A DNA stretch of 64,000 nucleotides from Candidatus Eiseniibacteriota bacterium (lineage in GTDB: Bacteria; Eisenbacteria; RBG-16-71-46; CAIMUX01), in the NCBI GenBank assembly GCA_963833505.1, contig CAWHYG010000007.1, positions 195,964 to 259,963 on the forward strand, read 5' to 3'. The position numbers and the translations under genes are program-made. Every line of letters starts with the position of its first letter. The first letter of the stretch is position 1. This document shows positions 30,115 to 45,079 of this stretch, piece by piece. A model generated the notes under the pieces. It was not told the DNA's origin. It saw only the letters and a list, made by a program, of their open reading frames with translations, and did not search any database.

Positions 30115-30122
30115 GGAAACCC

Positions 30123-31370
30123 ATGAAGCATAAAGTCGTGATCACCGGGTTGGGCGCGATCACGCCTCTCGGTCTGACTACGCCCCATTTCTGGGGTGGG
30201 TTGATCGAAGGGCGTTCCGGCATCGGCCCCGTGACCCGCTTCGACACCACCTCATTCGCGAGCAAGATCGCCGGGGAAGTGCGCGGATTCGATCCCGGCA
30301 ACTACATGGATCGCAAGGAGGCGAAGAGAACCGATCCGTTCACCCAGTACGCGCTGGCCGCGGCCAAGGAGGCGGTGGAACAGAGCGGCCTGGACACGTC
30401 GGAGCAGAACGGAGAGCGGATCGGCTGCATCATCGGTTCGGGCATCGGCGGGACGACCACCTGGGAGGCCCAGCACCGGATCCTGCTCGAAAAGGGGCCC
30501 GAGCGCGTCTCCCCTTTCTTCGTCCCCATGATGATCGCGGACATGGCCTCGGGGCAGGTCTCGATCGTCTACGGAACCCGCGGGTCCAACTTCGCCACCG
30601 TCTCCGCCTGCGCCTCGGGCGCGCACGCGGTGGGGGAAGGGTTCCGCCTGATCGGGAGCGGCGATCTGGACGCCTGCATCGCCGGTGGAAGCGAAGCTCC
30701 GGTCACGCCGCTGGCCATGGCCGGGTTCTGCTCCATGAAGGCCCTGAGCTTCCGCAACGACGATCCCCCCCGGGCGAGCAGGCCCTTCGATCGCGACCGG
30801 GATGGCTTCGTGATGGGGGAGGGGGCTGGGGTCGTCATCCTGGAGTCGGAGGCACATGCCCGGGCCCGAGGCGCGACCATTCTCGCCGAGCTGGCGGGTT
30901 ACGGGAGCACCGCCGACGCCCACCACATCACGGCACCGGCTCCCGTGGGCGAAGGCGCAGCGCGAGCCATGCGGCTCGCGCTGGAATCGGCCGGGGCCCG
31001 TCTCGAGGAAGTGGATTACATCAACGCGCATGGAACCTCCACGCCTTTGAACGACAAGTATGAGACGATGGCGATCCACACGGTCTTCGGCGAGCACGCC
31101 CACAAGCTGGCGATCAGCTCGACCAAGTCCATGACCGGCCACCTCCTGGGGGCGGCCGGCGCCATCGAGCTGGTGGCGACGATTTTGACCGTGAGAAACG
31201 ACCTGCTTCCGCCGACCATCAACTATGAGACGCCTGATCCTGAGTGCGACCTGGACTACGTGCCGAACCGTGCTCGCCCGGCGAAGGTCCGATTCACGCT
31301 CAGCAATTCCTTGGGCTTCGGCGGACACAATGTGACGCTGGCGGTTCGGAAGTACCCGGCGGAAGACTGA
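30123..31370 (+). CDS. fabF: 3-oxoacyl-ACP synthase II
   Basis: In-frame ATG (residue 12 of ORF 30090..31370): MKHKVVITGLGAITPLG ... ACASGAHA ... HGTSTPLNDK ... GHLLGAAG. Confidence 0.95.
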   Translation: MKHKVVITGLGAITPLGLTTPHFWGGLIEGRSGIGPVTRFDTTSFASKIAGEVRGFDPGNYMDRKEAKRTDPFTQYALAAAKEAVEQSGLDTSEQNGERIGCIIGSGIGGTTTWEAQHRILLEKGPERVSPFFVPMMIADMASGQVSIVYGTRGSNFATVSACASGAHAVGEGFRLIGSGDLDACIAGGSEAPVTPLAMAGFCSMKALSFRNDDPPRASRPFDRDRDGFVMGEGAGVVILESEAHARARGATILAELAGYGSTADAHHITAPAPVGEGAARAMRLALESAGARLEEVDYINAHGTSTPLNDKYETMAIHTVFGEHAHKLAISSTKSMTGHLLGAAGAIELVATILTVRNDLLPPTINYETPDPECDLDYVPNRARPAKVRFTLSNSLGFGGHNVTLAVRKYPAED

Positions 31371-31419
31371 ATCGCGGCTTCCGCCGGCGGGCTCGCGCCC
31401 GCCTTCGGCAGGAAGAGAC

Positions 31420-32265
31420 ATGGGCTGGATCCAGCAGCTATGGCGGCGCCTTCAAGGCGGGCCAAAGCGCCAGGCCGCGGACATTCAAGGCATCCTGGAC
31501 GCCTTTCAGAGGGAGATCGGGCTCAGGTTCAACGACCAGGCCCTTCTCCGCCAGGCGCTGACCCATCGATCCTTCCTGGGGAGCAACGGAGCCGACCCGC
31601 GCCTGTCCAACGAGCGGATCGAGTTCCTCGGCGACGCCGTGCTCGAGCTGGCCGTGATCGAGTTCCTCTATCGCCTGTATCCGGAAGACCGCGAAGGAGC
31701 CCTGACGAAGAAGAAGGGGTTGCTCGTTTCCCGGGAGGTGCTGGCCCACTGCGCGGAGCGGATGCGTCTGGGGAACTACATCCTTTTGAGCGACGCCGAG
31801 CGGGATTCAGGCGGTCGGGCCCGGGCTTCGATCCTCGCCGACACCTTTGAAGCGGTGGCGGGCTCGATCCATCTCGATCACGGATTGGTCGAGGCCCGAC
31901 GCTTCGTGCGCGAGCGGCTGCTGGTGCATGCCGACAGCATCCTGAAGGATCAGTCCCTCTCGAATCACAAGAGCCTCCTGCAGGAGCGCGTCCAGGCCCG
32001 GTTCAAGACGCATCCTCGCTATCGGGTGGTCACGGAGAGCGGCCCGGACCACATGAAGGTGTTCACCGTGGAGGTCTCGATCCGGGGAATGCTCCTGGGG
32101 CGCGGGCAAGGGAACAACAAGAAGGAGGCGGAACAGGCCTCGGCGCAGAACGCCCTCTTCCGCCTCGGCCAGATCGAGCCCGACCTTCCCCCGGCAGAGC
32201 CCGCAGCGGCGCACCGCGAGACGCCGCCGGCCGGGACCGGCGGGGATCCAAGCCCATCCCCTTGA
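31420..32265 (+). CDS. rnc: ribonuclease III
   Basis: ORF 31420..32265; RNase III signature ERIEFLGDAVLELAV and C-terminal dsRBD; Pro/Ala-rich C-terminal tail. Confidence 0.9.
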   Translation: MGWIQQLWRRLQGGPKRQAADIQGILDAFQREIGLRFNDQALLRQALTHRSFLGSNGADPRLSNERIEFLGDAVLELAVIEFLYRLYPEDREGALTKKKGLLVSREVLAHCAERMRLGNYILLSDAERDSGGRARASILADTFEAVAGSIHLDHGLVEARRFVRERLLVHADSILKDQSLSNHKSLLQERVQARFKTHPRYRVVTESGPDHMKVFTVEVSIRGMLLGRGQGNNKKEAEQASAQNALFRLGQIEPDLPPAEPAAAHRETPPAGTGGDPSPSP

Positions 32266-32403
32266 GGCGCGTCCCCGGGGAGCCCTTGCGCCTCAAAGCC
32301 TGCTCGGACCTGCTTCGTCGGCGCCTCGGAGCCCTTGCGCGCCAAAGCCTGCACGGACCGTGGACGGCCGATCATCCTCCGCGGGAATCGCCGATCGATG
32401 CCT

Positions 32404-33786
32404 CTACAGCTTGAAGTTGGCGCCCAGAAGGAAGCGCTTGTCCGTGGTCTGCTCGATCGTGGTGGCGCCCGACACCGCAGAGGCGCCGAGCCGGGTGAAG
32501 CCGCCGGTGATGTAGGCTGCGTCCAGTGACATCGCCGGGTCGACCTGCACGCTCGCGCCGAAAGTGACGTAGCGCCGATCGTGGTCGAACTGCGCGGGCA
32601 CGGCCTCCCCCGCGAAGACATCGGTGGCGATCATCCGGTAGGCGACCGGCTGGGAGATGAATCCCGCCCTCACGCTGACCGGCGTCTTGGGAATGTCGTA
32701 CTGGGCTCCGAAGCGCAGATCGACGGTCGATCGGTAGGCGTAGGAATCGCCGGTTCGGATCGACTCGTGGTCTTCCTGGATCTGGGTCCAGTCGGCGAAC
32801 TGGGCGTCAGCCGAAAGGAGCAGCCCGCGCAGGGCCCCGTGAGGCGCCTGATAGGCGAGCCCGGCCGACAGGCGCGGCGGGAAATAGAACGTCTGCCGGA
32901 TCCGCTCCGATCCGTAGGGGAAGCTGTCCAGACTGTCGAGGCCACCGTTCACGACGATGCGCGCGCTGTCGCTCTGCGTGCGCTCGAGCGTGATCGACTC
33001 CGGCAGGTGCACCACCAGCCCGAATCCGAATCCGGTGTCGGAGTGGAGATAGGCTCCCAGGTCTCCGGTCACTCCGGTGAAGTCGCCGTGCCAGGTGGAG
33101 TATTCCTGGTCCGAGTCGAGGCCGTCGGCCGAGCCATAGCTGAACGTCCGGCTGAGGTCGGAGCTGCCGGACAGAACGGTTCCGCTCAGCCCGAGGGAAA
33201 GCGTCGGCGTGACCGCCAGGCCGAGGCCGATCCGGTAGGCCCCGACGCTGCCGTTCTCCTCGATGGCCTCCATCTCGTCCTTGACCGGTCCGCCCGAGCC
33301 CGAGCGCAAGTAGGACGAGTCCAGCGGGATCTCGCGGTCGTAGGAGAACCCCACGACGAAGGAGCCTCTCCAGGTGGGCACGGGATACGCGATGCCAAAC
33401 GAGTTGATTCCGCTTTCATCCGCGGTGGAGGAGGTCGGATTTCCGAAGTACCGGTTGTCCTGCTCCAGGGTCGCGTGCGAGAAGGTCCCGCCGATCTGGG
33501 TGTTCTGGATCTGGCTCAAGCCAGCCGGATTGTAGCTCAGGGCGGTGTAGTCCCGGGCGACGCCGGTCCACGCGCCCCCCATTCCCATGGCCACGGCCCC
33601 TGCTCCGGATTGGGAGACGAGGGGAAGGTCATCGGGAATCTGCGCCTCTGCTCGACCGGTCCAGGCGAGCGCGGCCAGAAGCAGAAACGACGCGGCCGTC
33701 CGGATGCTCGCCCCTGGAGCGCCTCGGCGGCTCGCCGCCGGCACCGGAAACGGATGACTCGCTTGGGAACTGCTGGATACCGTCAC
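32404..33786 (-). CDS. FadL/OmpP1-family outer-membrane beta-barrel protein
   Basis: ORF 32404..33786, 460 aa; signal peptide; N-terminal hatch-like motif GAGAVAMGMGGAWTGVARDYTALSYNPAGL (NPA motif); beta-strand-rich; ends ...LGANFKL. Confidence 0.65.
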   Translation of the reverse strand: MTVSSSSQASHPFPVPAASRRGAPGASIRTAASFLLLAALAWTGRAEAQIPDDLPLVSQSGAGAVAMGMGGAWTGVARDYTALSYNPAGLSQIQNTQIGGTFSHATLEQDNRYFGNPTSSTADESGINSFGIAYPVPTWRGSFVVGFSYDREIPLDSSYLRSGSGGPVKDEMEAIEENGSVGAYRIGLGLAVTPTLSLGLSGTVLSGSSDLSRTFSYGSADGLDSDQEYSTWHGDFTGVTGDLGAYLHSDTGFGFGLVVHLPESITLERTQSDSARIVVNGGLDSLDSFPYGSERIRQTFYFPPRLSAGLAYQAPHGALRGLLLSADAQFADWTQIQEDHESIRTGDSYAYRSTVDLRFGAQYDIPKTPVSVRAGFISQPVAYRMIATDVFAGEAVPAQFDHDRRYVTFGASVQVDPAMSLDAAYITGGFTRLGASAVSGATTIEQTTDKRFLLGANFKL

Positions 33787-33930
33787 GGAGATCCTCCTTC
33801 AAAACAGAGCGGCGCCGGAGCGGGGACGACGCAACGCTCGCCGGACGCCGTCGAGCGCAAGGGGGAACCCGGAGACCTGCTCTTGCTCAGGCGTCGTCAT
33901 CGTCTCCTCGGTTCCGCTGCGAGGTTCGCC

Positions 33931-34413
33931 TCATCGTCCCCAGGCGTGTCGCGACGCATCCCGATCCGGCGGCGATGGTGGCGGGGTGGATGAGTTCGAG
34001 TTGTTGGAATCGTCGTTCGTGCTCGCATCGACGCCGGTAGCAGGGGTGGGAGTGGTTCCCGAGCCCACCGGCGGGACGGTCGAGGCGCCGGAATTGCGGT
34101 TCCAGGCGCCGCGTCCGCTCGACGCGGGTGCCGGAGACGGCGTGGCCGATCCCGGCGCCGCGTGCCACCAGGAATCATCCCAGTACGACCACGGCTGGAC
34201 GAAGAAGACGTGGGGAACGACTCCGTAGGGCGTGAACGCCAAGTAGTACGGGTCGGTCCACTGGTCGTAGACTGTGGAGTCCGGCGGGGTCCCCAGGTCG
34301 GACTGATCCGACGCATCAGGCAGGCTCGGAGGGCGAAGCAACACGGTGTAGCAGCCGGTCCCGGCCACGACGATGAAAGCGGCAAGACAGAAGATGACCG
34401 CGAAGCGCGACAT
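33931..34413 (-). CDS. small secreted/membrane-anchored hypothetical protein (Trp/Tyr-rich core, Ser/Thr/Pro/Asn-rich tail)
   Basis: In-frame ATG (residue 120 of ORF 33931..34770): MSRFAVIFCLAAFIVVAGTGC signal/anchor; good GC3 bias downstream; no family recognised. Confidence 0.45.
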   Translation of the reverse strand: MSRFAVIFCLAAFIVVAGTGCYTVLLRPPSLPDASDQSDLGTPPDSTVYDQWTDPYYLAFTPYGVVPHVFFVQPWSYWDDSWWHAAPGSATPSPAPASSGRGAWNRNSGASTVPPVGSGTTPTPATGVDASTNDDSNNSNSSTPPPSPPDRDASRHAWGR

Positions 34414-36310
34414 GCCCGACCTCCCTGTCACCGGCTCCGCCGGCGCGGAGCCGTTTGTCGGACGCGAGTGCCAAATCCGCCGGGTCGAGAGCCGAAGAGG
34501 GCCGGTTCGGTCCTTCCCGCGGCTCACGAACTTCCTGACTCGGCTTCTTTCGACCGCAGCGTTGTCTTTTACCGTATACACGGCAGAGGCGGCGGCGTTC
34601 CCTGTTCCGGAGTTTACGCAGGTACTGCCGCAAGCAGGAGTATTTCCGCCGGACACGAGCGGGATCCGCGCCGCCCACGGCATCGTTCCGGCCAACGGAG
34701 CCGGTTCCGGACTGGAAGCGTTCCTGGCGGGTACGCTTCTGGAGGAGCAGGGACGCCACCGGGAGGCCATCGCGGAGTTCCGGAAGGCGCGGGCGGCCGA
34801 CTCGACGGACGTCGCGGCCCCGGTGGCGATCGCTCGCGCCTACGCGGAAATCGACCGCCCGGATTCGGCGGAGGCCTGGATCCGCGCGTCTCTTGGTCTC
34901 TCGCCCCGGAACCTCGAGGCGCTGGTCCTGGCGGGATCCATCGACGAAGGGCTGGGACGCCTCGACAGCGCGCGAGTGGAGTACCAACGGGCGCTTCAGG
35001 TTTCGCCCGACGATCCGGGCGCGTTCATGAATCTGCTGTCCCTCCTGCAGAGGCAGGGGCGCGGGCAGGAGGCCCTCGATCTCATCGAGCAATCCCGCTC
35101 GCCTCTGCTGGAGACGCCTCCGCTCGACTTCCGGAAGGCGCAGATCCAGGCATCTCTGGAGAAGTATCCCGAAGCGATCGAGTCCCTGGCACAGGTCTTG
35201 AAGCGGGAGCCGGATTTTCCGGATGCCGTGGCGCTGCTCCATCTCGCTCTGGCCAGATCGGCCGACCCGGTCTCGGCGGTGCCCGTCCTGGAGGAGATTC
35301 TCAGCGAGCAACCCCAGATGGACCGCGTCCGCGTGGAGCTGGCGCAGATCCTGATGTCCTCCGATCGCTGGAAGGACGCCATACCGCATCTGCAGTTCCT
35401 CTGGCAGGAGCATCCCAAGGACGAGATCATCGCCGCGCACCTCGGCGCGCTTCTGCTCCGGGCGGATCGGAACGCCGAAGCGCAGGCCGCTCTCGAATCC
35501 GCGGCCGGCCTCAAGCCCGATGATCCCGAGCCGCTCCGCCTGCTCTGGCAGGTCGCGTCTCAGTCGAATCGCGATCAGGATGCCCTGGGCCTGGCGAACC
35601 GGCTGGTCGGCCTGGAGCCTCGGGATGCCCGCAGCCGCACGATGCGCGCCCTGAGCCTGGCGAAGTTGGGACATGCGCCGGAGGCGCTGGCCGCGGCCGA
35701 CTCCGCCCTGGGGTTGGATCCGGGAGACAACGAAGCGGCCGTCCTGGCCTCGGGCATATTGAGTCGCCGGAAAGACTACGACGCGGCGGCGCGGCGCGTG
35801 CGGACCGTCATCCAGGCGCATCCGGACGACCGGCCCATGGAGTTCCGCCTGGGAGCGATCCTGGAAGAAGCCGGCCAGATCGACTCGTCTCTGGCGGTTT
35901 TCAACCGGATGCTGGCGGTGGACCCGGACGATGCGATCGCTCTCAATTTCGCCGGCTATATGTGCATCGAACGCGGAATCCGGATGGACGAAGCCATGGA
36001 TCGCGTTCGAAGGGCTCTCAAGTTGCAGCCGGACAACCCAGCATTTCTTGACAGTTACGGATGGGGCCTCTATCGCACGGGGAAGGCGGCCGAGGCGCTC
36101 GATCCGCTGAGCCGGGCCGCCTCGATCGACCCCGAGAATCCCGAGATCCTCAAGCACCTGGGCCGCGTCCAGGCCGAGGCCGGCCACAAGGACGCGGCGG
36201 CCGACACCTATCGGCGCGCGCTTCGCCTGACGCCGGGGGACCAGGAGCTTCAGGGATGGCAGCGGGAGCTGGAGCCGCTCACCGAGCCGCATCCCGATGC
36301 ATCCAAATAA
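34412..36310 (+). CDS. tetratricopeptide-repeat (TPR) protein
   Basis: ORF 34373..36310; many TPR units (e.g. AEAQAALESAAGLKPDDPEPLRLLWQVA); 5' ~300 nt has atypically low GC3, so the true start may lie further downstream (~34700-34830). Confidence 0.6.
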   Translation: MPDLPVTGSAGAEPFVGRECQIRRVESRRGPVRSFPRLTNFLTRLLSTAALSFTVYTAEAAAFPVPEFTQVLPQAGVFPPDTSGIRAAHGIVPANGAGSGLEAFLAGTLLEEQGRHREAIAEFRKARAADSTDVAAPVAIARAYAEIDRPDSAEAWIRASLGLSPRNLEALVLAGSIDEGLGRLDSARVEYQRALQVSPDDPGAFMNLLSLLQRQGRGQEALDLIEQSRSPLLETPPLDFRKAQIQASLEKYPEAIESLAQVLKREPDFPDAVALLHLALARSADPVSAVPVLEEILSEQPQMDRVRVELAQILMSSDRWKDAIPHLQFLWQEHPKDEIIAAHLGALLLRADRNAEAQAALESAAGLKPDDPEPLRLLWQVASQSNRDQDALGLANRLVGLEPRDARSRTMRALSLAKLGHAPEALAAADSALGLDPGDNEAAVLASGILSRRKDYDAAARRVRTVIQAHPDDRPMEFRLGAILEEAGQIDSSLAVFNRMLAVDPDDAIALNFAGYMCIERGIRMDEAMDRVRRALKLQPDNPAFLDSYGWGLYRTGKAAEALDPLSRAASIDPENPEILKHLGRVQAEAGHKDAAADTYRRALRLTPGDQELQGWQRELEPLTEPHPDASK

Positions 36311-36377
36311 AGGCAGGGGTTCGGGAACCCTTTCACCCCGACAGGGTTTCACCCGATGATGCCATAAGGGAGAAGAT

Positions 36378-37006
36378 ATGCAGGTGAGTGACGAAAAACG
36401 GGCGACACCGCTCATATCGGGGCTTCCGGACGAGGTCCTGATGGAACACGTCGTGAGGGGCTCGGAGGCGGCGTTCGCCACTCTGGTGGATCGCTACAAG
36501 GGCCGCGTCATCAACGTCGTCTGCCGGTTCATCAACGACCGGGATCGCGCCCAGGAGATCGCCCAGGAGGTGTTTCTCCGCGTCTTTGTGCACCGCGAAC
36601 GCTATCGTCCGAACGGCAAGTTCAGCACGTGGATCTACACGATCGCGGTGAACCTCGCGAAGAACGAGATCCGGCGCCGGGTGCGATCCGCGGAATCGTC
36701 AGCCTGGACGCGCTTCTGGAGGTGGCGGGCGACTCCAGCAAGTTCGTGGCCGACCCCGGCCCGCGCCCCGATCGCCGGCTGCGGCAGAGAGAGATCGAGG
36801 AGTGGGTGCAGAAGGGTCTGTCCGAGCTTCCGGAGAAGTACCGCGAGGTCATCATCCTGAGAGACTTTCAGCAGCTTTCCTACGAAGAGATCGAAGAGGT
36901 CTTGGGCATTCCGGGGGGGACGGTCCGTTCCCGGATCAATCGGGCCAGGGCATCGTTGCAGGAACGCCTGGGGGCCCTGGTGGAAGGTGGCATCGATGAA
37001 TTGTAG
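36378..37006 (+). CDS. ECF-family RNA polymerase sigma factor (apparent frameshift near 36690)
   Basis: ORF 36378..36860 has sigma region 2 (DEVLMEHVVRGSEAAFATLVDRYKGRVINVV ... STWIYTIAVNLAKNEIRRR); ORF 36629..37006 in another frame has region 4 (YREVIILRDFQQLSYEEIEEVLGIPGGTVRSRINRARASLQ); a single base in gaa(a)tc would join them. Confidence 0.8.
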
Positions 37007-37655
37007 GCAGGCGCGGGCTTTGTTCTCGAACCGCATCGACCATGAGCTGGCGACCCGGGACACCCAGCGTCTCGAGCGCCATGTGGCCGTGTGTCGTGAG
37101 TGCCAGGCCAAGTGGGAGTCCTTCGAGCTGACCGTCCGGATGGTCCGCACGTTGCCCCAGGCCGCTCCCGACGCCTCGTTCGTCGGCCAGGTGCTTGACC
37201 GCGTGCGGGGCTACGAGGCGGAGAACCGCGCCCGGGAGCGCGAGGCCCGGATCGGGATCCTCGACCGGATCCGGGACGGGCTGGAGGGCGCCCTCTGGCG
37301 GCGCCTGCAGCTTCCGGTCCAGCTTGCCGGAGCCGCGGCGTTCGGGCTGTTGGCGGGCTTTGTCGTCACGCAGACCCATCTGTTGTCCGGGAGGGTTCCG
37401 ATGACGATGACCGCCGCCATCCAGGGCTCCGTTCCGTTCTCCTCAGCGAGCGCCGTGGCCGGCGTCGTCCAGTCGCGCCGACCGTTCGACGACCTCGTCG
37501 GGACCATTGCGGAAAGGCAGGGATCCGGAAACTCCGACTCGGCTGCCGCCGTCCGGTCGCCGTCTTCGGACGCCGCGTCCGGTGTGCTGCAGGGGTCCGG
37601 GGCGGAGCGCCAGGTGAGCTTGAGTGCCGATGGCCGCCCTCAAATCACCTTCTAG
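36987..37655 (+). CDS. anti-sigma factor, zf-HC2 type, single TM helix
   Basis: ORF 36987..37655; N-terminal CRQA...H-x3-C-x2-C zinc-finger pattern (HVAVCRECQ); central TM LAGAAAFGLLAGFVV; directly follows and overlaps the ECF sigma gene. Confidence 0.7.
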   Translation: MASMNCRQARALFSNRIDHELATRDTQRLERHVAVCRECQAKWESFELTVRMVRTLPQAAPDASFVGQVLDRVRGYEAENRAREREARIGILDRIRDGLEGALWRRLQLPVQLAGAAAFGLLAGFVVTQTHLLSGRVPMTMTAAIQGSVPFSSASAVAGVVQSRRPFDDLVGTIAERQGSGNSDSAAAVRSPSSDAASGVLQGSGAERQVSLSADGRPQITF

Positions 37656-38928
37656 AGCCCGCCGACCAGACCCGCAGGTATCCGTCTTCGAGGGGGCGCC
37701 GGCCGGCTCGAGAGCCAGGCTGAGCGTCCCCGTTCTCTTGCTGGCTCTCCTCGTCGCTCCGGCGCTGCGCGTCGCAGCGGCCTCGGGACCGCCCGGCTAT
37801 CCTCCGGTCGCCGACGCTCTGGCCCGCCTCAGCCGCGACCTGGAGCCGTCGGTCGTCCAGATCATCTCCTTCCGGCCGATCGGACCGTCCCCGCGAGACC
37901 TGGAGGGCGCCGGAAGCGTGTCGAGATTGGAACCGTCGCGCGAAACGCTCTGGGCCTCCGGAGTGGTCTTGGACGAGCAGGGGACGATTCTCACCTGCGC
38001 CGAAACCGCCCAGCCGGGTGACAGCCTCGAAATCCGCACCGCGGCGGGCCGGCGGTTCGGGGCTCGTTTCCTCGCGCTCGACGCTCCGCTGGGAGTGAGC
38101 CTGATCCAGGCGTCCGGCGCGGAAGGGCTGGCGCCGATCCGCCTGAGCGGTCCGGCGCCTTTCCGGAGAGGCTCGTCCGTGCTGGTGCTTCACTACGTGG
38201 CCGAGGGCCAGGAGCCCGTGCTCAAGCTCGGCGCGATGACCGCCCCGCCCGCCGGTCCGGGAGACCAGAACACGCACCTGAGACTGGCCCTGGCCGACTG
38301 CCACGGCGCGTGCGGAGGCGCGGTCGTCGATGCCGACGGCCACTTCTGCGGGATCGTGGTGGACATCCAGGCGGAAGCCGAGGCCCAGGGCGGCCAGGGC
38401 GAAGTCAGACAGCCGGCGGATCTGCTTGAATACGACGACGTGGGCGTTCTCTGCGCGGGGATGTTCCCGGATCTGGCCGCGCGTCTGGAGAACCAGGCCG
38501 AGCGGCGGTTCGGTTATCTGGGGGTGCAGGCCCGGGTGGGGGACGAGTTGAGCCGGGAGCCGGATCCGGCGGACTCCACTCGCGGGCCGATCTTCGTCAG
38601 CCGCGTGTTCCCGGGCAGCCCGGCCGAGGTCGCCGGATTCCTGCCAGGGGATCAGATTCTCGCCATCGACGGGCGGGAGGTCTCCGGGCGCGCCCAGGTG
38701 ATCCGGCAGCTAGCCGAGACGCCTCCCGGCAGCGAGATCCAGGTCAAGCTGCTTCGAAGAGGGGTTCCCCTTACGCTGTATCCCCGGGTCGGGGATCGCT
38801 CGTCTCTGGAGTGGATGCAGCGCGAAGACCAGCTCAACCAGATCCGGCAGAGGCGCATCCGGCGCACCATCCAGGAGCTGGAGATCCACCTCCATCAGAT
38901 CGAAGAGCCGAAGGTGGCGCAACGCTGA
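37624..38928 (+). CDS. trypsin-like (DegP/HtrA-like) periplasmic protein with C-terminal PDZ domain; catalytic motifs non-canonical
   Basis: ORF 37624..38928; signal peptide; PDZ motif IFVSRVFPGSPAEVAGFLPGDQILAIDGREV; protease-like core where the expected GNSGGP appears as GACGGA and the TNAH-type His motif as LTCAE. Confidence 0.65.
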   Translation: MPMAALKSPSRARRPDPQVSVFEGAPAGSRARLSVPVLLLALLVAPALRVAAASGPPGYPPVADALARLSRDLEPSVVQIISFRPIGPSPRDLEGAGSVSRLEPSRETLWASGVVLDEQGTILTCAETAQPGDSLEIRTAAGRRFGARFLALDAPLGVSLIQASGAEGLAPIRLSGPAPFRRGSSVLVLHYVAEGQEPVLKLGAMTAPPAGPGDQNTHLRLALADCHGACGGAVVDADGHFCGIVVDIQAEAEAQGGQGEVRQPADLLEYDDVGVLCAGMFPDLAARLENQAERRFGYLGVQARVGDELSREPDPADSTRGPIFVSRVFPGSPAEVAGFLPGDQILAIDGREVSGRAQVIRQLAETPPGSEIQVKLLRRGVPLTLYPRVGDRSSLEWMQREDQLNQIRQRRIRRTIQELEIHLHQIEEPKVAQR

Positions 38929-39127
38929 GCCGTCCTCCCGGCCTTGACCTCTGCCCGGCCCGATGCTGATGATTCTCCGGTGCCTCGCGACGGGCGATCA
39001 TGAATAATGCGGGCTGTTCTTCGGAACGTGTTGGACCGCCGCGCCCGGGAACTGGAGCGCGGGGGCGGGAAGAGGCTCGGCGAGCCCACATCGAGAGGTA
39101 GGGAACCGGCAGGCACGCCGCTGGGCG

Positions 39128-40255
39128 TTGCCGGGATGGCGCGGGCGCAACGGCGGCGGAGGCGGCGTGATCGAGATCCAAGTCAACCTGGGTGATCGGA
39201 GCTATCCGGTCCGCATCGGCCCCTGGCGGGATTGGGACCTGAGGTCGCTCGCGCGCGGCTGGTCCCGCTCTCCCTGGGTTCTGATCGCCGACCGGCGCGC
39301 CTGGGACGTCTGGTCGCGCGACGTCCTGTCCTGTTTCGGATCCGAACAGATCGACGTGCTCGTCGCGGAACTGGACGGCGGGGAACCGGCCAAGTCCCAC
39401 GATGCGCTTTTCCGGATCTACGACCACCTCGTCCAGCACAACGTCCATCGGGACGGGACCCTCGCCGTGTTCGGCGGGGGAGTGCTGGGCGATCTGGCCG
39501 GATTCGCGGCCGCGACCTGGCAGCGCGGAATCCGATTCGTGCAGATTCCGACGACGCTCCTGGCGCAGGTCGATTCCAGCGTCGGCGGAAAGACGGGACT
39601 GAACTACGGCCGGACGAAAAACGTGATCGGGACCTTCTATCAACCCGCAGCCGTGCTGATCTCGCCGGAGTGGCTGAACAGCCTGCCTCCCCGTGAGTTT
39701 CGGGCCGGGATTGCCGAGGTGATCAAGTGCGCGGTCATCCGGGATCCCGAGCTGCTCCGGATCCTGGAGGATGAGGAACCCGACCGTCTGGCCCGTTCCC
39801 TGGTCCTGGAAGAGATCCTGGCGCGCGCGCTCGTCGTCAAGGCCCGGATCGTCGAGCAGGACGAACGCGACCACGGGCTCCGGAACATCCTCAACTTCGG
39901 GCACACCATCGGGCACGCCCTCGAGGCGGCCTCCGGATTCACGCAGCTCCTGCACGGCGAAGCCGTCTCCCTGGGCATGGTGGCGGCGCTCCACCTCTCG
40001 GTGGACGCGGCCGGGCTTCCGCCCGCCGACCTCTTGCGCATCGAGCGTCTCCTCGCGCGCCACGGCCTCCCGATCCGGGTGGACGGCATCGATCCGGCCT
40101 CGGCGCGCGAACGTCTCAAGGTCGACAAGAAGGTTCGAAGCGACGCCCAGGTGTGGGTGTTGACAGAGAGACTGGGCACGGCTACCGTCACGACCCGAGT
40201 TCCCGCCGACCAGGTCGACGCGGCGGTGTCCTACATCTTCGAGCGGGGATCCTGA
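39128..40255 (+). CDS. aroB: 3-dehydroquinate synthase
   Basis: ORF 39128..40255; LAVFGGGVLGDLAGFAAATWQRGIRFVQIPTTLLAQVDSSVGGKTGLN and NFGHTIGHALE motifs; alternative GTG start at ~39167. Confidence 0.9.
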   Translation: MPGWRGRNGGGGGVIEIQVNLGDRSYPVRIGPWRDWDLRSLARGWSRSPWVLIADRRAWDVWSRDVLSCFGSEQIDVLVAELDGGEPAKSHDALFRIYDHLVQHNVHRDGTLAVFGGGVLGDLAGFAAATWQRGIRFVQIPTTLLAQVDSSVGGKTGLNYGRTKNVIGTFYQPAAVLISPEWLNSLPPREFRAGIAEVIKCAVIRDPELLRILEDEEPDRLARSLVLEEILARALVVKARIVEQDERDHGLRNILNFGHTIGHALEAASGFTQLLHGEAVSLGMVAALHLSVDAAGLPPADLLRIERLLARHGLPIRVDGIDPASARERLKVDKKVRSDAQVWVLTERLGTATVTTRVPADQVDAAVSYIFERGS

Positions 40256-40695
40256 TGCCAAGACGCCTCCTCGTACTGCACGGGCCGAATCTGAACCTGC
40301 TGGGAGAGCGGGAGCCGCAGATCTACGGAACGCGGACTCTCGAATCCATCAATCAGGATCTCGAATCGGAGGCGGCGAGGCTGGGTTGCGAGCTCGCCGC
40401 GTTTCAATCGAATCATGAGGGAGAGCTGATCGATCGCCTGCAGCGGGCCCGGACCGAGGTGGACGGCGTCATTCTGAACCCGGGCGGACTGAGTCACACG
40501 AGCGTCAGCCTGAGGGACGCGGTGGCGGCTCTCGGCCTGCCGGTGATCGAGGTCCATCTAAGCAATCCGGCTGCGCGCGAGGCGTTCCGCCGTAGAGACC
40601 TGATCGCGCCCGTGTGCTCCGGATTGATCCAGGGACTCGGCCCGACCGGATATCTGGCCGCCCTCTGGGCGCTCAATGCTCTCCTCAAGGGCTGA
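40255..40695 (+). CDS. aroQ: type II 3-dehydroquinate dehydratase
   Basis: In-frame ATG (residue 35 of ORF 40153..40695): MPRRLLVLHGPNLNLLGEREPQIYG ... INPGGLSHTSVSLRDA; TGATG overlap with aroB. Confidence 0.9.
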   Translation: MPRRLLVLHGPNLNLLGEREPQIYGTRTLESINQDLESEAARLGCELAAFQSNHEGELIDRLQRARTEVDGVILNPGGLSHTSVSLRDAVAALGLPVIEVHLSNPAAREAFRRRDLIAPVCSGLIQGLGPTGYLAALWALNALLKG

Positions 40696-40808
40696 ACGGG
40701 GTCTCGTGACCGCCGATCGGCCCGCTTCTTGTCCCAGGCTGATGGCGCTGTCGGAAACGGCGCCGGGGCCCTTTCCGCCCGGGCCGCGGATGACTGGAGA
40801 GAGTTCCC

Positions 40809-41315
<507 letters not shown>

Positions 41316-41320
41316 GCGGA

Positions 41321-41350
41321 CGCGGCGGGGCCTGCAAGGCCGCGCCGCCG
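41321..41350 (+). terminator. GC-rich hairpin downstream of accB (terminator-like)
   Basis: gcggcggggcc-tgcaa-ggccgcgccgc, ~8 nt after the accB stop; no clear U-tract. Confidence 0.35.
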
Positions 41351-41506
41351 GCGAGAAGTCAAGGGGGTCCTCTTCCCGGCGCGCTACGCCGGCGCTCCGA
41401 CGTTCCGATCGAACGGCGGCCCTTCTGCCGAGGCCGTGCGCCGGCGTTCCGATCGGCAGGCCGCTCTCTTGATGAGGCCGCGCCCCGGCAGGTGTCCGGC
41501 GAAAGG

Positions 41507-42727
41507 ATGGCGATGGATTTCCGCCGCGTTCTCGAGATCGTCCTCGATCGGAAGGCGAGCGACCTCCACCTCAAGGTGGGAACCCGGCCGCAGATCCGGG
41601 TGGACGGCAGGATCGAGAGCGTCGATGAGCCCCCGCCCACCGTGAAGGAGATGGAAGGCTTCGCCGACATGCTCCTCACGCCGGCCCAGAAGCAGGAGCT
41701 GGCGCAGAAGCGGGAGATCGACTTCGCGATCGGAGTTCCCGGCCTGGCTCGATTCCGGGCCAACGTCTACTACCAGCGGGGGACGATGGCGGTCGTGCTC
41801 CGGCACGTCCCCCTCGGCGTCCCCGCCTTTGAAGAGCTGAATCTTCCGCCCCAGGTGGAGAAGCTCGCGCTCTCTCCCCGCGGCCTCGTCCTGGTCACGG
41901 GCACGGTCGGCAGCGGCAAGTCCACGACGCTGGCTTCGATGATCGATTCGATCAACCGCCGGATCGCGCGCTCCATCATCACGGTGGAAGACCCGGTCGA
42001 GTTTCTCCATCGCGACGACAAGTGCGTGATCAGCCAGCGCGAGGTCGGCCTCGACACCTTGAGCTACGCCGACGCGCTCCGGCACATCCTGAGGCAGGAT
42101 CCCGATGTCATCCTGCTCGGCGAAATCCGGGACCGGGAGACCATGTCGACGGCGCTCATGGCCGCGGACACCGGCCATTCGGTGCTCTCCACCCTGCACA
42201 CGGTGGACGCAGCCCAGACGGTGAACCGCATTCTCTCGTTCTATCCGCCCCACCAGCACGAGGAGATCCGCTACCTTCTCGCCTCCACGCTGCGGGCGGT
42301 GGTGTCGCTGCGGCTGATTCCCAAGGCCGGAGGTTCCGGCCGGGTGCCCGCCGCGGAGATCCTGGTCAACACTCCGACCATCCGGGACTATCTGATGTCC
42401 GCGGACAAGACGCATTCGATACGCTCGGCGATCCAGGAGGGTGCCACGCAGTACGGGATGCAGTCCTTCGATCAGTCCTTGATGCGTCTCTATCGGCGCG
42501 GTTTGATCACGCAGGAGGAGGCGGTGCGGAACTCGTCGACTCCGACCGAGTTCGAGCTGCGGATCCGGGGCATCCAGGCTTCCAGCGACACGAGCTGGGA
42601 CGTGTTCGAGGAGGGGCCCGCCGGTCCGATTCCCTCGGAAGAGCCGGGCTCGGCCGGCGGCAGCGAAGAGCGCGCCCCGGTCGCGCGGGAGCCGGCCGCG
42701 GGGCCCGGAGGCGTGGTGCGGTATTGA
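41507..42727 (+). CDS. pilT: type IV pilus twitching-motility ATPase PilT/PilU family
   Basis: In-frame ATG (residue 209 of ORF 40883..42727): Walker [41 protein letters not shown] motifs. Confidence 0.9.
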
Positions 42728-42810
42728 AGCGTTCCGGTCGCGACGCGACCGACGTTCCCACGACCCGGGCGGCGGATCGGTTCCGGGAAGGGGCAGAGCG
42801 CAGGAGGCGC

Positions 42811-44232
42811 ATGTTCACGAAGATTCTGGTCGCCAATCGGGGCGAGATCGCGGTGCGGATCATCCGCGCCTGCCAGGAACTGGGCGTGGCCACCGTCGCC
42901 GTCTACTCGGACGCGGACCGGGATTCCCTCCACGTGCGCATGGCGGACGAAGGCATCTGCATCGGTCCGGCGCCGAGCCGGGAAAGCTATCTCAACGTGA
43001 CCCGCGTCATGAGCGCGGCCCAGATCTCCAACGCCGACGCGATCCATCCCGGATACGGGTTCCTGGCGGAGAATCATCAGTTCGCCGAGGCGGTCGAGAC
43101 TTCCGGCCTGACCTTCATCGGGCCGGCGCCCGAGTCGATCCGCGTCATGGGCGACAAGAGCATCGCCAAGGCGACGATGAAGGCGGCGGGAGTGCCGGTG
43201 GTTCCGGGCAGCGAAGGAACCGTCGACGATGTGGCCGTCGCCCTGGTCCTGGCGGAACGCATTGGATACCCCATCATCCTCAAGGCCAAGGACGGCGGCG
43301 GCGGAAAGGGCATGCGCGTGGTCTCGGCTCCGGAGGAGCTGGAGCGCCAGTACCAGACGGCGCAGAACGAAGCAGCGGCCGCGTTCGGCAACGGCGCCCT
43401 CTACCTGGAGAAGTACCTGCGCGCTCCCCGGCACATCGAGATCCAGCTCGCGGGGGACACGGCCGGACGCGTGGTCCACTTCTTCGAACGGGATTGTTCG
43501 ATCCAGCGGCGGCATCAGAAGCTGCTCGAAGAGACTCCCAGCCCGGGGCTGAATCTGCAGACGCGCGAGGCCATGGGTCGGGTGGCCTGCGAGGGGGCGG
43601 GCGCCATCGGCTACCGGGGCCTGGGCACGATGGAGTTCCTGCTCGACCAGGACGGCTCCTACTACTTCATGGAGATGAACACCCGGCTCCAGGTGGAGCA
43701 TCCGGTGACGGAAATGGTCACGGGCATCGACCTCGTCAAGTTGCAGATCCGGATCGCCGCGGGCGAGCCGATTCCCTTCGGCCAGTCGGACATCGTGCAG
43801 CGGGGACACGCCATCGAATGCCGGATCAACGCGGAATCGCCGCACCAGGGGTTCCGTCCCTGCCCCGGCACCGTGACCGGTTTCCACATCTCGGGAGGCT
43901 TCGGCATCCGGCTCGACAGCCATGTCTACGCGGGTTACGCCATCCCGCCGCACTACGACTCCATGATCGCGAAGCTCATCGCTCACGGGCGCGACCGGGA
44001 AGAGGCCGTCGCCCGGATGTCGCGGGCTCTCCGGGAGTCGGTCATCGAGGGCATCGACACCACTATTCCCTACCATCGGGCGATCCTGTCCGACCCGGAC
44101 TTCCTGGCCGGCCGGTTCGACACCCGTTTCGTCGAGCTGCATAAACTGACATCCGAGCGCGAAGGCGGCGCCGGCGCGTCCGCGCCTCGATCCGAGGCCC
44201 AGGCGGCGCCGCGGGCCTCCGGAACGGCATGA
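42811..44232 (+). CDS. accC: acetyl-CoA carboxylase biotin carboxylase subunit
   Basis: In-frame ATG (residue 264 of ORF 42022..44232): [20 protein letters not shown] ... [20 protein letters not shown] ... [14 protein letters not shown]. Confidence 0.95.
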
Positions 44233-44284
44233 ACCCCACCCGGAGCGGATCCAGGATCCGCGCCGGCCCGGAGTTGAACGCACC

Positions 44285-45079
44285 ATGAAGATTGAGCTTC
44301 TGTTGACCGGCGGGGAGGTTCCTGATTTCCACGCCAAGGGGAGGCGCATCGTGCTGGTGGACGTGCTGCGCGCCGGCACCAGCCTGGCGGTCGCCCTCGA
44401 ATCCGGCGCCGAACGCATCGTGCCCGCGGAGTCGGTTGAAGCGGCCAAGAAGCTGCTGGCGCTGCTGGATCGAAAGAGCACGCTTCTGGCGGGGGAGATG
44501 GACGGAGCCAAGCTTCCGGGCTTCGACCTGGGCAACTCGCCCGGCGAGTTCCGCGACGCCCAGATCGCGGGCAAGACCATCGTCTTCAGCTCCAGCGATG
44601 GAGCGCCGCTCATGGCGCGGATGTGGGACGCGGCCGAGATGCCCCTGCTTTCGTTCGTGAACATCCAGGCCGTGACCGACTATCTGCTGGCCATGGAGGA
44701 GACCGACCTCTCGGTGATCTGCGCGGGCCGGGAAGGCCGCTTCAGCATGGAGGATGCGGTCTGCGCCGGCATGCTCTGCGAGCGGCTCGCCGGGAAGTCG
44801 TCGGATCTCGAGACCAATGACGCGGGCCGGGCCGCCCTGTTGCTCTACCGGGCCCGCGCCGCCGATCTGACCGAAGTGCTGCGGACCTGCTCGAGCGGGC
44901 TTTTCCTCAAGAGCCTGGGGCTGGAGGCGGATCTGGACGAGGCCGCCCGCGTCGACTCGATCCGGCTGGTGCCGGTGGTTCGCGAGGGACGGATCACGGC
45001 GATTCGCCCGCCCTGGCCGGCGCCCGCCGTGGACCCGCCGGTCAGTGGGTCACCTTCCAGAAGAGCAGCCCGCCGATAG
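44285..45079 (+). CDS. 2-phosphosulfolactate phosphatase (ComB) family protein
   Basis: ORF 44285..45079; resemblance to the ComB family (VLVDVLRAGTS ... SSDGAPL ... AGREGRFSMEDAVCAG); assignment from memory, moderate. Confidence 0.6.
   Translation: MKIELLLTGGEVPDFHAKGRRIVLVDVLRAGTSLAVALESGAERIVPAESVEAAKKLLALLDRKSTLLAGEMDGAKLPGFDLGNSPGEFRDAQIAGKTIVFSSSDGAPLMARMWDAAEMPLLSFVNIQAVTDYLLAMEETDLSVICAGREGRFSMEDAVCAGMLCERLAGKSSDLETNDAGRAALLLYRARAADLTEVLRTCSSGLFLKSLGLEADLDEAARVDSIRLVPVVREGRITAIRPPWPAPAVDPPVSGSPSRRAARR

What the first reader, a model, noticed from the sequence alone, without database searches (positions are those of the whole stretch)
36378..38928. ECF sigma / zf-HC2 anti-sigma / PDZ-protease-like trio with non-canonical protease active-site motifs
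The layout resembles sigmaE-RseA-DegS/DegP envelope-stress modules, but in the protease-like protein the expected Ser nucleophile motif GNSGGP appears as GACGGA and the His-motif region as LTCAE. This could be a Cys-nucleophile variant or a catalytically dead PDZ sensor. It sits downstream of the FadL-like OMP, a small secreted protein and a TPR protein.
Basis: partly seen in the sequence, partly recalled or inferred. Interest (0 to 1): 0.45.

Follow-up and report, generated by a model that had tools for sequence, protein, structure and literature searches.

The report
Dead DegS-like protein beside anti-sigma
A stress-signalling operon of an uncultured Eisenbacteria-type bacterium carries a protease look-alike that has lost its cutting residues but kept its peptide-binding PDZ pocket, and its partner anti-sigma factor always ends in the kind of tail such pockets bind, which suggests that a sensor that normally cuts has been turned into one that holds.

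Summary
Window 36378-38928 (+) holds three overlapping genes: an ECF sigma factor, a zf-HC2 membrane anti-sigma factor and an HtrA/DegS-like protein with a Trypsin_2 domain and one PDZ domain. In the HtrA-like protein the catalytic His, Asp and Ser are replaced by Glu, Gly and Cys (LTCAE, APLGVS, GACGG).

The Cys-nucleophile idea is not supported. In 47 relatives, none has His or Asp at the triad positions, and no His is invariant or nearly invariant among the 14 closest members. The Ser position drifts (C, A, S, G, T). The Cys at that position always co-occurs with a second Cys two residues before the lost His (26 with both, 21 with neither, 0 with one). The closest relative of the window protein has lost both. 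The Cys therefore looks like half of a pair, not a nucleophile.

- Every cognate anti-sigma factor I could read ends in hydrophobic-x-Phe-COOH (PQITF here), resembling the YxF tails of outer-membrane proteins (OMPs). The PDZ carboxylate loop GFLGV is near-invariant.
- The sigma gene is broken by a 1-nt deletion at about 36687. This is probably an assembly error, because an LptF gene in the window is also frameshifted.

Best reading: a pseudoprotease that binds the anti-sigma tail and gates its proteolysis. This is a new variant of the sigmaE-RseA-DegS theme. The mechanism is inferred, not shown.

The parts
32404..33786 (-). FadL/TodX-like outer-membrane protein. Divergent neighbour, syntenic in all orthologous contigs.
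   Evidence: Pfam Toluene_X E 2e-8. Syntenic. tblastn with orthologues.
33931..34440 (-). Small protein with no known domain. About 165-196 aa in orthologues. The start here is uncertain; the mechanical ORF runs to 34770.
   Evidence: No Pfam hit. tblastn match at 34054-34410. Syntenic.
34373..36310 (+). TPR-repeat protein directly upstream of the sigma gene. Conserved in this position across the family.
   Evidence: TPR_19 E 7e-46. Synteny.
36323..36348 (+). ECF-type promoter-like motif, GGGAACC-N14-GGGTT, about 55 nt upstream of the sigma start codon. Suggests autoregulation.
   Evidence: The motif GGAAC-N15-18-GGGT[TG] is found at the same place upstream of the sigma gene in every orthologous locus searched that includes that upstream region (L002, L005, L007, L008, L010, L011). 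There is only one other hit in the 64-kb window.
36378..36688 (+). ECF sigma factor, 5' part (region 2), residues 1 to about 104.
   Evidence: Sigma70_r2 E 1.6e-17. About 81% identical to residues 1-104 of the orthologous sigma factors of L002 and L005.
36686..36689 (+). Frameshift site: one nucleotide is missing relative to orthologues (CGA-TC-CGC here, CGC-GCC-CGC in L002). The sigma ORF is broken in this assembly.
   Evidence: Repair scan and alignment. tblastn frame change at 36689. An independent Logan contig, L001, starts exactly at 36688. There is no slippery heptamer.
36689..37006 (+). ECF sigma factor, 3' part (region 4), in the -1 frame relative to the 5' part. Its stop codon overlaps the anti-sigma start.
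   Evidence: Sigma70_r4_2 E 7.7e-18. About 80-82% identical to residues 105-209 of the orthologous sigma factors of L002 and L005.
36996..37655 (+). Single-pass anti-sigma factor, 219 aa. Contains an N-terminal zf-HC2 domain (H-x3-C-x2-C at 37080-37106), a TM helix (37311-37385), and a short low-complexity periplasmic part carrying the conserved motif RPFDDLVG (37479-37502).
   Evidence: zf-HC2 E 3.9e-8. NCBIfam anti-sigma hits. Ortholog alignment. Coordinates.
37638..37652 (+). Extreme C-terminus of the anti-sigma factor, PQITF-COOH. Proposed PDZ ligand.
   Evidence: All 11 distinct cognate anti-sigma factors end in hydrophobic-x-Phe: PQITF, PQLTF, PRITF, PQFIF, VYIDF, VYIIF, VIVRF, DTITF.
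37630..38928 (+). HtrA/DegS-like pseudoprotease, 432 aa from ATG 37630 (434 aa from GTG 37624). It overlaps the end of the anti-sigma gene. Layout: N-terminal signal peptide or anchor, protease-fold domain, one PDZ domain, C-terminal helix.
   Evidence: Pfam. DegP/DegS/AlgW are the best solved relatives by sequence and by fold (Foldseek E 4e-21). AF2 model pLDDT 77.
37996..38004 (+). Cys123-Ala-Glu125 (432-aa numbering). Glu125 sits at the catalytic His position. Cys123 (His-2) is the partner of Cys228.
38092..38094 (+). Gly155 at the catalytic Asp position.
   Evidence: Across the 47 members this position is G in 34, H in 8, N in 5, and never D.
38311..38313 (+). Cys228 at the catalytic Ser position (GACGG).
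   Evidence: It co-occurs with Cys123 in 26 of 26 members that have either, and both are absent in the other 21.
38509..38775 (+). PDZ domain, including the carboxylate-binding loop FGYLGV (38509-38526).
   Evidence: PDZ_2 E 2.3e-12. The loop G-[FY]-[LV]-G-[VLI] is kept in 44 of the 47 relatives; the other three have Ala for the first Gly.
38797..38922 (+). Family-specific C-terminal helix of about 42 residues, following the motif DRSxLxW. Absent from canonical HtrA. Role unknown.
   Evidence: AF2 helix 390-431, block-mean pLDDT about 83-87 over most of its length, falling to about 68 at the C-terminal end. Conserved in the alignments.

Best explanation
The third gene encodes a periplasmic HtrA/DegS-derived pseudoprotease. 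It works as a PDZ-based binding partner of the anti-sigma factor, not as its site-1 protease.

Shown:
- The fold and domain order are HtrA-like.
- The catalytic His and Asp are gone in the whole Eisenbacteria-wide family.
- The Ser position is free to vary.
- The Cys found here at the Ser position is one half of a strictly covarying Cys pair.
- The PDZ carboxylate-binding loop is near-invariant.
- The co-translated anti-sigma factor has a short, poorly conserved periplasmic segment that always ends in hydrophobic-x-Phe-COOH. That is the type of C-terminus DegS and AlgW PDZ domains bind on outer-membrane proteins (OMPs).
- The three genes overlap and sit behind a conserved ECF-type promoter.

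Inferred:
- The pseudoprotease, probably a trimer like other HtrAs, captures the anti-sigma tail in its PDZ pocket. This caps or enlarges the periplasmic end, so tail-specific or site-2 (RseP-type) proteases cannot attack it.
- Unassembled OMP C-termini compete for the PDZ pocket and release the tail. The anti-sigma factor is then degraded and the sigma factor freed.
- The Cys123-Cys228 pair most likely forms a disulfide (or a redox or metal site) across the former catalytic centre. It is structural or modulatory, not catalytic.

The break in the sigma gene in this window is most likely an assembly indel.
For: Family and fold:
- Trypsin_2 plus PDZ.
- Best sequence and fold matches are DegP, DegS and AlgW.
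- NCBIfam DegP/DegS/DegQ scores are far below their cut-offs: 72.6 against 416, 60.9 against 423.

Triad loss:
- His->Glu, Asp->Gly, Ser->Cys in the window protein.
- In 47 full-length relatives, the His position is E/D/R/S/G/M, the Asp position is G/H/N, and the Ser position is C26/A9/S6/G5/T1.
- No invariant or nearly invariant His column.

Cys pair:
- 26 members have both cysteines, 21 have neither, none has one.
- P0036, sister to the window protein in the neighbour-joining tree, lost both.

PDZ kept:
- The GFLGV loop and SPAE-AG are conserved across the 47 relatives (loop G-[FY]-[LV]-G-[VLI] in 44 of 47).

Anti-sigma tail:
- 11 of 11 distinct cognate anti-sigma factors, from every subgroup sampled, end in hydrophobic-x-Phe, while the rest of the periplasmic part barely aligns.
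- Entry titles of solved DegS structures among the fold matches list bound activating peptides that end in YQF or YRF.
- The AlgW PDZ binds OMP and MucE C-termini (abstract of PMC8545111).

Operon and linkage:
- Overlapping genes.
- The sigma / zf-HC2 anti-sigma / HtrA-like order holds in every contig read.
- Conserved promoter motif upstream of the sigma gene.

Frameshift as artefact:
- Orthologous sigma genes are intact at 209 aa, and the window sequence has no other defect.
- A second frameshift interrupts the window's LptF homologue (LptF is essential in E. coli, from my own knowledge).
- A Logan contig breaks at the sigma frameshift site.
Against: - No direct evidence of PDZ-tail binding. 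An AF2 run on a fusion of the pseudoprotease with the last 70 residues of the anti-sigma factor left the tail at pLDDT below 50. Only a 3-residue strand formed at the end. This is inconclusive.
- The distance between the two cysteines could not be measured, because the tools return no coordinates. In classical chymotrypsin-fold enzymes, positions 55 and 195 are not disulfide partners (own knowledge). A disulfide would therefore need local remodelling.
- All family members are syntenic orthologues within one candidate phylum. Gene linkage could partly reflect frozen gene order rather than functional coupling.
- The tail could instead be read by a different, active PDZ protease encoded elsewhere in the genome.
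- The sigma gene is formally disrupted in this sequence.
Confidence: 0.5

Rival explanations
1. Cys-nucleophile protease. The protein is an active chymotrypsin-fold cysteine protease with a GxCGG motif, as in picornavirus 3C proteases. It acts as the site-1 protease of the anti-sigma factor.
For: Cys sits exactly at the nucleophile position, in a G-x-C-G-G context. It is conserved in 26 relatives. The gene lies where a site-1 protease would make sense.
Against: - There is no His at the base position in any of the 47 relatives, and no invariant or nearly invariant His among the 14 closest members.
- The acid position is Gly.
- The residue replacing His is Glu, Asp or Gly, so it is not fixed.
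- Orthologues in the same operon position carry Ala, Gly, Thr or Ser instead of Cys.
- The closest relative, P0036, has Ala there.
- The Cys never occurs without its partner Cys.
Confidence: 0.04
2. Unlinked chaperone or holdase. The pseudoprotease is simply a member of the sigma regulon that binds unfolded envelope proteins, as DegP S210A does. It does not touch the anti-sigma factor. The anti-sigma hydrophobic-x-Phe tail is the recognition signal for a separate active PDZ protease (DegS-, Prc- or CtpA-like) encoded elsewhere.
For: - HtrA proteins keep chaperone activity without the catalytic Ser (own knowledge).
- Effector genes are often co-transcribed with ECF sigma factors, for example M. 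tuberculosis sigE-rseA-htrA (own knowledge).
- AF2 did not dock the tail.
Against: - An intact PDZ pocket and a PDZ-type tail are co-conserved on adjacent, overlapping genes across all subgroups.
- No canonical HtrA motif lies in a plausible gene within the 64-kb window. The rest of the genome was not available.
Confidence: 0.25
3. Redox or metal sensor. The Cys123/Cys228 pair, with the acidic residue between them, forms a redox-switchable disulfide or a metal site in the former active centre. Its state, rather than OMP C-termini, is the signal passed to the anti-sigma factor. This is comparable to MamO, an HtrA pseudoprotease repurposed for metal binding, or to CnrX-type periplasmic sensors.
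For: - Strict covariation of the two cysteines.
- An acidic residue at the His position in 32 of 47 relatives.
- Precedent: MamO (PMC4794232).
Against: - Twenty-one orthologues, including the closest relative, lack the pair yet keep the whole module. The pair therefore cannot be the core signal input of the family.
- Two Cys-bearing members have Gly instead of the acidic residue.
Confidence: 0.12
4. Decaying locus. The module is being lost in this genome, with a frameshifted sigma gene and a dead protease, and has no current function.
For: The sigma ORF is interrupted at about 36687.
Against: - The triad loss is ancient and family-wide, with strong purifying selection: 55 invariant columns among 14 homologues at 34-45% identity.
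- The sigma gene has a single 1-nt defect and is otherwise 80-82% identical to its orthologues.
- The window's LptF homologue carries a similar frameshift, which points to assembly error.
- The promoter motif is intact.
Confidence: 0.05

Closest known systems
E. coli sigmaE-RseA-DegS(-RseB) envelope-stress pathway, and P. aeruginosa AlgU-MucA-AlgW/MucE
   Same: - An ECF sigma factor held by a single-pass anti-sigma factor.
- A periplasmic HtrA-fold protein with one PDZ domain.
- PDZ ligands of the aromatic/hydrophobic-x-Phe-COOH type (DegS co-crystals with YQF and YRF peptides; AlgW, PMC8545111).
   Different: - Here the HtrA-like protein has no His-Asp-Ser triad, so it cannot perform site-1 cleavage by the known chemistry.
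- The hydrophobic-x-Phe tail is on the anti-sigma factor itself rather than on OMPs or MucE.
- The gene is fused into the sigma/anti-sigma operon; degS is unlinked in E. coli (own knowledge).
- There is an extra C-terminal helix.
- Functionally it may resemble RseB (a protector) more than DegS.
Mycobacterium tuberculosis sigE-rseA-htrA(pepD) gene arrangement
   Same: Gene order ECF sigma, ZAS-type anti-sigma, HtrA-like PDZ protein (own knowledge; PepD described in PMC3062566).
   Different: - PepD is an active serine protease.
- RseA of M. tuberculosis is cytoplasmic (own knowledge).
- No hydrophobic-x-Phe tail logic is known there.
MamO of magnetotactic bacteria (HtrA-family pseudoprotease)
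   Same: An HtrA-fold protein that lost catalysis and was repurposed. New ligand-binding residues sit in the former active-site region (PMC4794232).
   Different: - MamO binds transition metals through a di-histidine motif for biomineralisation, according to the MamO paper (PMC4794232).
- It is not part of a sigma/anti-sigma operon.
- It has no Cys pair.
Plant DEG7 degenerated protease domain
   Same: A degenerate HtrA protease domain retained for protein-protein interaction (PMC3194040).
   Different: Eukaryotic. The degenerate domain is fused to an active one and serves oligomerisation, not signalling.
Picornavirus 3C / PA-clan cysteine proteases
   Same: Chymotrypsin fold with Cys in a GxCGG motif at the nucleophile position (own knowledge).
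   Different: Those enzymes need a catalytic His, plus Glu or Asp. No His is present at that position here, and no conserved His was seen.

Membership tests
HtrA / MEROPS S1C (DegP, DegQ, DegS) | Chymotrypsin-fold protease domain followed by at least one PDZ domain. | tested here: met
   Trypsin_2 E 2.4e-14 plus PDZ_2 E 2.3e-12. Foldseek top hits are DegP, DegQ, AlgW and DegS, E about 1e-20.
HtrA / MEROPS S1C (DegP, DegQ, DegS) | Catalytic triad His-Asp-Ser (TNxHV ... D[IL]A ... GNSGG). | tested here: not met
   Glu, Gly and Cys sit at the three positions in two independent alignments. No alternative conserved His.
HtrA / MEROPS S1C (DegP, DegQ, DegS) | Score above the curated NCBIfam cut-offs for DegP/HtrA/Do, DegS or DegQ. 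| tested here: not met
   72.6 bits against 416 (TIGR02037), 60.9 against 423 (TIGR02038), 58.8 against 756 for DegQ.
DegS-type site-1 protease of an anti-sigma factor | Single PDZ domain with an intact carboxylate-binding loop able to bind x-Phe-COOH peptides. | tested here: inconclusive
   A single PDZ domain is present and the loop G-[FY]-[LV]-G-[VLI] is kept in 44 of the 47 relatives. Binding itself was not testable. The AF2 fusion model was not confident.
DegS-type site-1 protease of an anti-sigma factor | Proteolytic cleavage of the anti-sigma periplasmic domain. | not testable with these tools
   Needs biochemistry. The missing triad argues against it.
PA-clan cysteine proteases (3C-like) | Cys nucleophile paired with a catalytic His at the chymotrypsin His57 position. 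| tested here: not met
   Cys is present at the Ser195 position. The His57 position is E/D/G in all Cys-bearing members.
ECF (group IV) sigma factors | Sigma70 region 2 and region 4 only, about 200 aa. | tested here: met
   Region 2 and region 4_2 hits.
ECF (group IV) sigma factors | Uninterrupted reading frame. | tested here: not met
   A 1-nt deletion at about 36686-36689 in this assembly. Likely an artefact, but not verifiable without reads.
Class I zinc-binding anti-sigma factors (ZAS, zf-HC2) | N-terminal anti-sigma domain with H-x3-C-x2-C, followed by one TM helix. | tested here: met
   zf-HC2 E 3.9e-8. HVAVCREC at residues 29-36 and a hydrophobic helix at residues 106-130.

The most novel reading that the evidence does not exclude
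Across the candidate phylum Eisenbacteria, the DegS-type envelope-stress sensor may have been inverted. The protease became a non-catalytic receptor whose PDZ pocket holds the anti-sigma factor's own OMP-mimicking hydrophobic-x-Phe tail. Unassembled OMP C-termini would trigger the response by competitive displacement rather than by allosteric activation of a site-1 cut. In one subclade this would be modulated by a disulfide spanning the dead active site. That would be regulated intramembrane proteolysis gated by a pseudoenzyme plug instead of a site-1 protease.
Probability: 0.25. Interest if true: 0.75.

Novelty: new variant of a known kind. Interest (0 to 1): 0.55.

Why it matters
If the model holds, it shows a second logic for coupling outer-membrane-protein assembly defects to an ECF sigma factor: competition for a PDZ pocket on a pseudoprotease, instead of activation of a protease. 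It would also be a clean natural example of an enzyme turned into a signalling adaptor.

The model is directly testable with peptides and a three-gene reconstitution.

Practically, this whole orthologous group appears to lack the catalytic triad, and the one member for which a public name could be retrieved is labelled 'S1C family serine protease'. The case also warns that a Cys at a Ser-nucleophile position need not be a nucleophile.

Tried and rejected
- AF2 on a fusion of the mature pseudoprotease with the last 70 residues of the anti-sigma factor, to see whether the tail docks into the PDZ domain. The tail had pLDDT below 50 and only a 3-residue strand formed. Inconclusive.
- Literature check of my recollection that DegS Asn94 (the His-2 position) contacts the oxyanion/L1 loop, which would make a Cys(His-2)-Cys(Ser) bridge plausible. 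No searchable paper held the terms, and the HtrA review does not mention it. I do not use it as evidence.
- Programmed -1 frameshifting in the sigma gene. Rejected: there is no slippery heptamer and orthologues are in one frame.
- A recurrent break of the sigma gene, suggested by L003. Rejected: that split is a 10-N scaffold gap.
- ECF re-classification paper searched for HtrA, PDZ and protease context. Nothing relevant.
- Searches for a described dead HtrA linked to an anti-sigma factor. None found.
- Rfam and sigma70/terminator scans of the region. Nothing informative.
- Search for paralogous zf-HC2 anti-sigma factors in the held sequences, to serve as a control for the Phe tail. None present.
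- A Tat signal or Fe-S cluster idea for the four cysteines. Not pursued, by my own inspection of the N-termini: a twin-arginine-like motif appears in only one orthologue, and only the two-Cys pair is conserved across the Cys clade.
Full report
**1. What is at the coordinates**

Window 36378-38928 (+ strand) carries three head-to-tail, overlapping genes.

- ECF sigma factor. Sigma70_r2 (E 1.6e-17) and Sigma70_r4_2 (E 7.7e-18).
- Anti-sigma factor, 219 aa from ATG 36996. It has a zf-HC2 domain (E 3.9e-8, HVAVCREC), one TM helix (residues 106-130) and about 85 periplasmic residues.
- HtrA-like protein, 432 aa from ATG 37630, or 434 aa from GTG 37624. It has Trypsin_2 (E 2.4e-14) and one PDZ domain (E 2.3e-12).

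The sigma stop codon overlaps the anti-sigma start, and the anti-sigma 3' end overlaps the HtrA-like start. Long antisense ORFs in this 67-68% GC sequence have no family hits or orthologue support. I treat them as spurious. Rfam finds nothing in 31-41 kb.

**2. The non-canonical motifs are real and map onto the triad**

phmmer against solved E. coli DegP chains and MAFFT with canonical HtrAs give the same mapping:

| DegP residue | Window residue | Motif |
|---|---|---|
| His105 | Glu125 | LTCAE |
| Asp135 | Gly155 | APLGVS |
| Ser210 | Cys228 | GACGG |

The conserved non-catalytic Asp of HtrAs (FLAQD) is retained, so the register is right. The AF2 model (pLDDT 77, pTM 0.70) has the two-barrel protease fold, one PDZ domain and an extra C-terminal helix of 42 residues. 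Foldseek puts DegP, DegQ, AlgW and DegS on top at E about 1e-20. NCBIfam scores for DegP/DegS/DegQ models are far below their cut-offs.

**3. The family**

A word-indexed search found only 13 close relatives at 36-47% identity, then a large gap to ordinary HtrAs. A profile search of 1.84 billion representatives found 46 proteins matching almost the whole profile in one stretch, nearly all with the same architecture including the C-terminal helix. I tabulated 47 family members.

Two members from the most distant subgroups come from Candidatus Eisenbacteria MAGs (L011; P0072; taxonomy). NCBI labels P0072 'S1C family serine protease'.

State of the triad positions in the 47 members:

| Position | Residues found |
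|---|---|
| His | E16, D16, R8, S4, G2, M1 (never His) |
| Asp | G34, H8, N5 (never Asp) |
| Ser | C26, A9, S6, G5, T1 |

None of the invariant or nearly invariant columns among the 14 closest members is a His. The triad was therefore lost before the family diversified. The Cys at the Ser position arose later, in an already dead background.

**4. The Cys is half of a pair**

- Cys at His-2 (the C of LTC) and Cys at the Ser position co-occur in 26 members and are jointly absent in 21. There are no discordant cases.
- In a neighbour-joining tree, P0036 is the sister of the window protein, deep inside the Cys clade. It has Thr and Ala at the two sites. So the pair was lost together at least once, and the module survives without it.
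- This fits a disulfide, or a joint redox or metal site, across the former catalytic centre of a periplasmic protein. It does not fit a nucleophile.
- I could not measure the distance between the cysteines, because no coordinates are returned.
- A second, less widespread Cys set exists: Cys224 at Ser-4, together with a Cys in the 250-275 insert, or Cys240 in the window protein and P0036.

**5. Context is conserved, and so is the anti-sigma tail**

- Every contig I could read shows sigma (intact and about 206-247 aa wherever the contig covers the whole gene), then zf-HC2 anti-sigma, then the HtrA-like gene. Where enough flank is available, the TPR protein lies upstream and AroB, AroQ, BCCP, a PilT-like ATPase and AccC lie downstream.
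- The periplasmic part of the anti-sigma factor is short and barely alignable, except for an RPFxDL motif and the extreme C-terminus.
- The C-terminus is hydrophobic-x-Phe in 11 of 11 distinct proteins: PQITF, PQLTF, PRITF, PQFIF, VYIDF, VYIIF, VIVRF, DTITF.
- The titles of solved DegS structures among the fold matches list bound activating peptides that end in YQF or YRF. AlgW does the same with OMP and MucE C-termini (PMC8545111).
- In the pseudoprotease, the PDZ carboxylate-binding loop G-[FY]-[LV]-G-[VLI] and the SPAE-AG helix start are conserved across the 47 relatives (the loop pattern holds in 44 of them), while the catalytic residues are not.

**6. Promoter**

A GGGAAC[CT]-N14-17-GGGT[TG] motif lies about 55 nt upstream of the sigma start codon in the window (36323-36348). 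It is found at the same place in every orthologous locus searched that includes the region upstream of sigma (L002, L005, L007, L008, L010, L011). There is only one other match in the whole window. This is the usual signature of an autoregulated ECF operon (inference).

**7. The sigma gene is broken in this assembly**

- Region 2 and region 4 are in different frames. Inserting one base at 36686-36688 restores a 209-aa protein that aligns end to end with the L002 orthologue (tblastn frame change at 36689).
- There is no slippery site, so programmed frameshifting is unlikely.
- An independent Logan contig from run ERR11594402 begins exactly at 36688. That suggests a graph break or read heterogeneity at this spot.
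- Among the window genes compared with their L002 and L005 orthologues, the LptF homologue is also split between frames, at about 46471-46479.
- I therefore consider an assembly indel more likely than pseudogenisation. Only the reads can tell.

**8. How it most likely works**

Shown:
- A dead HtrA fold with a preserved PDZ pocket.
- A cognate anti-sigma factor with an invariant PDZ-type C-terminus.
- Tight operon coupling.
- A conserved ECF promoter.

Inferred:
- The pseudoprotease binds the anti-sigma tail through its PDZ domain. It thereby shields or enlarges the short periplasmic segment against tail-specific or RseP-type proteases. The idea that RseP access is limited by the size of the periplasmic stub is from my own knowledge of the E. 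coli system.
- Free OMP C-termini compete for the pocket and release the tail, which starts degradation of the anti-sigma factor.
- In this reading the protein works like RseB plus the PDZ half of DegS, without the cut.

The Cys pair would lock or modulate the old active-site loops in one subclade.

My confidence by layer:
- Pseudoprotease: about 0.85.
- Paired, non-nucleophilic Cys: about 0.7.
- Tail-PDZ capture controlling proteolysis: about 0.4-0.45.

The AF2 fusion test neither supports nor refutes the last step.

**9. Comparison and novelty**

- The closest known systems are sigmaE-RseA-DegS/RseB and AlgU-MucA-AlgW/MucE.
- The M. tuberculosis sigE-rseA-htrA gene order is similar, but its protease is active.
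- MamO and plant DEG7 are precedents for repurposed HtrA pseudoproteases (PMC4794232, PMC3194040).
- I found no paper describing a triad-less HtrA wired to an anti-sigma factor with an OMP-like tail.
- The protein fails membership in catalytic S1C and in 3C-like cysteine proteases on tested features, while keeping the HtrA fold.
- I rate it a new variant of a known kind. Interest is moderate to high for envelope-stress and pseudoenzyme specialists. It is limited by the uncultured host and by the purely inferential mechanism.

Noticed in passing
window 36686-36689: The ECF sigma gene is split between two frames by a missing nucleotide relative to the intact 209-aa orthologues. An independent Logan contig (L001, run ERR11594402) starts exactly at 36688.
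   Followed up: partly
window about 46471-46479 (minus strand): The LptF homologue is also frameshifted: residues 1-353 are in frame -3 and residues 357-454 in frame -1. This suggests the assembly carries indel errors.
   Followed up: partly
window 36323-36348; L002 6632-6658; L005 6668-6693; L007 6405-6430; L008 2728-2753; L010 about 4327; L011 about 4412: A conserved ECF-type promoter-like motif, GGGAAC[CT]-N14-17-GGGT[TG], lies upstream of every orthologous sigma gene. One further match in the window, at 12879 (+), sits where the longest ORF is a 640-aa ORF on the minus strand, so it may be a chance match.
   Followed up: partly
window about 29800-47500, and loci L002, L005, L007, L008, L015, L017: Long conserved gene order, probably across Candidatus Eisenbacteria: FabG-ACP-FabF-RNase III, then the FadL-like OMP and small protein on the opposite strand, then TPR-sigma-antisigma-pseudoHtrA-(DUF4837)-AroB-AroQ-BCCP-PilT-like-AccC...LptG/LptF-SprA. 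The DUF4837 gene present in some orthologues is absent from the window.
   Followed up: partly
P0072 / MBU2690602.1 (L017 5001-6308): NCBI names this family member 'S1C family serine protease', although it has Ser, Asn and Ser at the His, Asp and Ser positions. It has no catalytic His or Asp, so the name is probably wrong. The family as a whole lacks the triad, so other members may carry similar names.
   Followed up: yes
window 38797-38922: A family-specific C-terminal helix of about 42 residues, rich in Arg, Gln and Glu, follows the conserved motif DRSxLxW. Canonical HtrAs end after the PDZ domain. Function unknown; it may be a coiled coil.
   Followed up: no
window 37479-37502: A second conserved periplasmic motif in the anti-sigma factor (RPFDDLVG; RPFxDL in group A, GPFEDLV in L013). 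It could be a docking or cleavage site.
   Followed up: no
window 38299-38301, 38347-38349, 38452-38454: Additional cysteines: Cys224 at Ser-4 (the chymotrypsin Cys191 position), Cys240 and Cys275. Most relatives pair Cys224 with an 'EC' in the insert. The window protein and P0036 instead share 'GHFC'.
   Followed up: partly
window 40883-42727: The mechanical ORF is 614 aa, but homology to the PilT/T2SSE-like ATPase starts only at 41513. The N-terminal 200 aa are probably not translated, a typical ORF over-extension in GC-rich DNA.
   Followed up: no
L003 about 6946-6955: The split sigma gene in this low-coverage assembly is caused by a 10-N scaffold gap, not by a mutation.
   Followed up: yes
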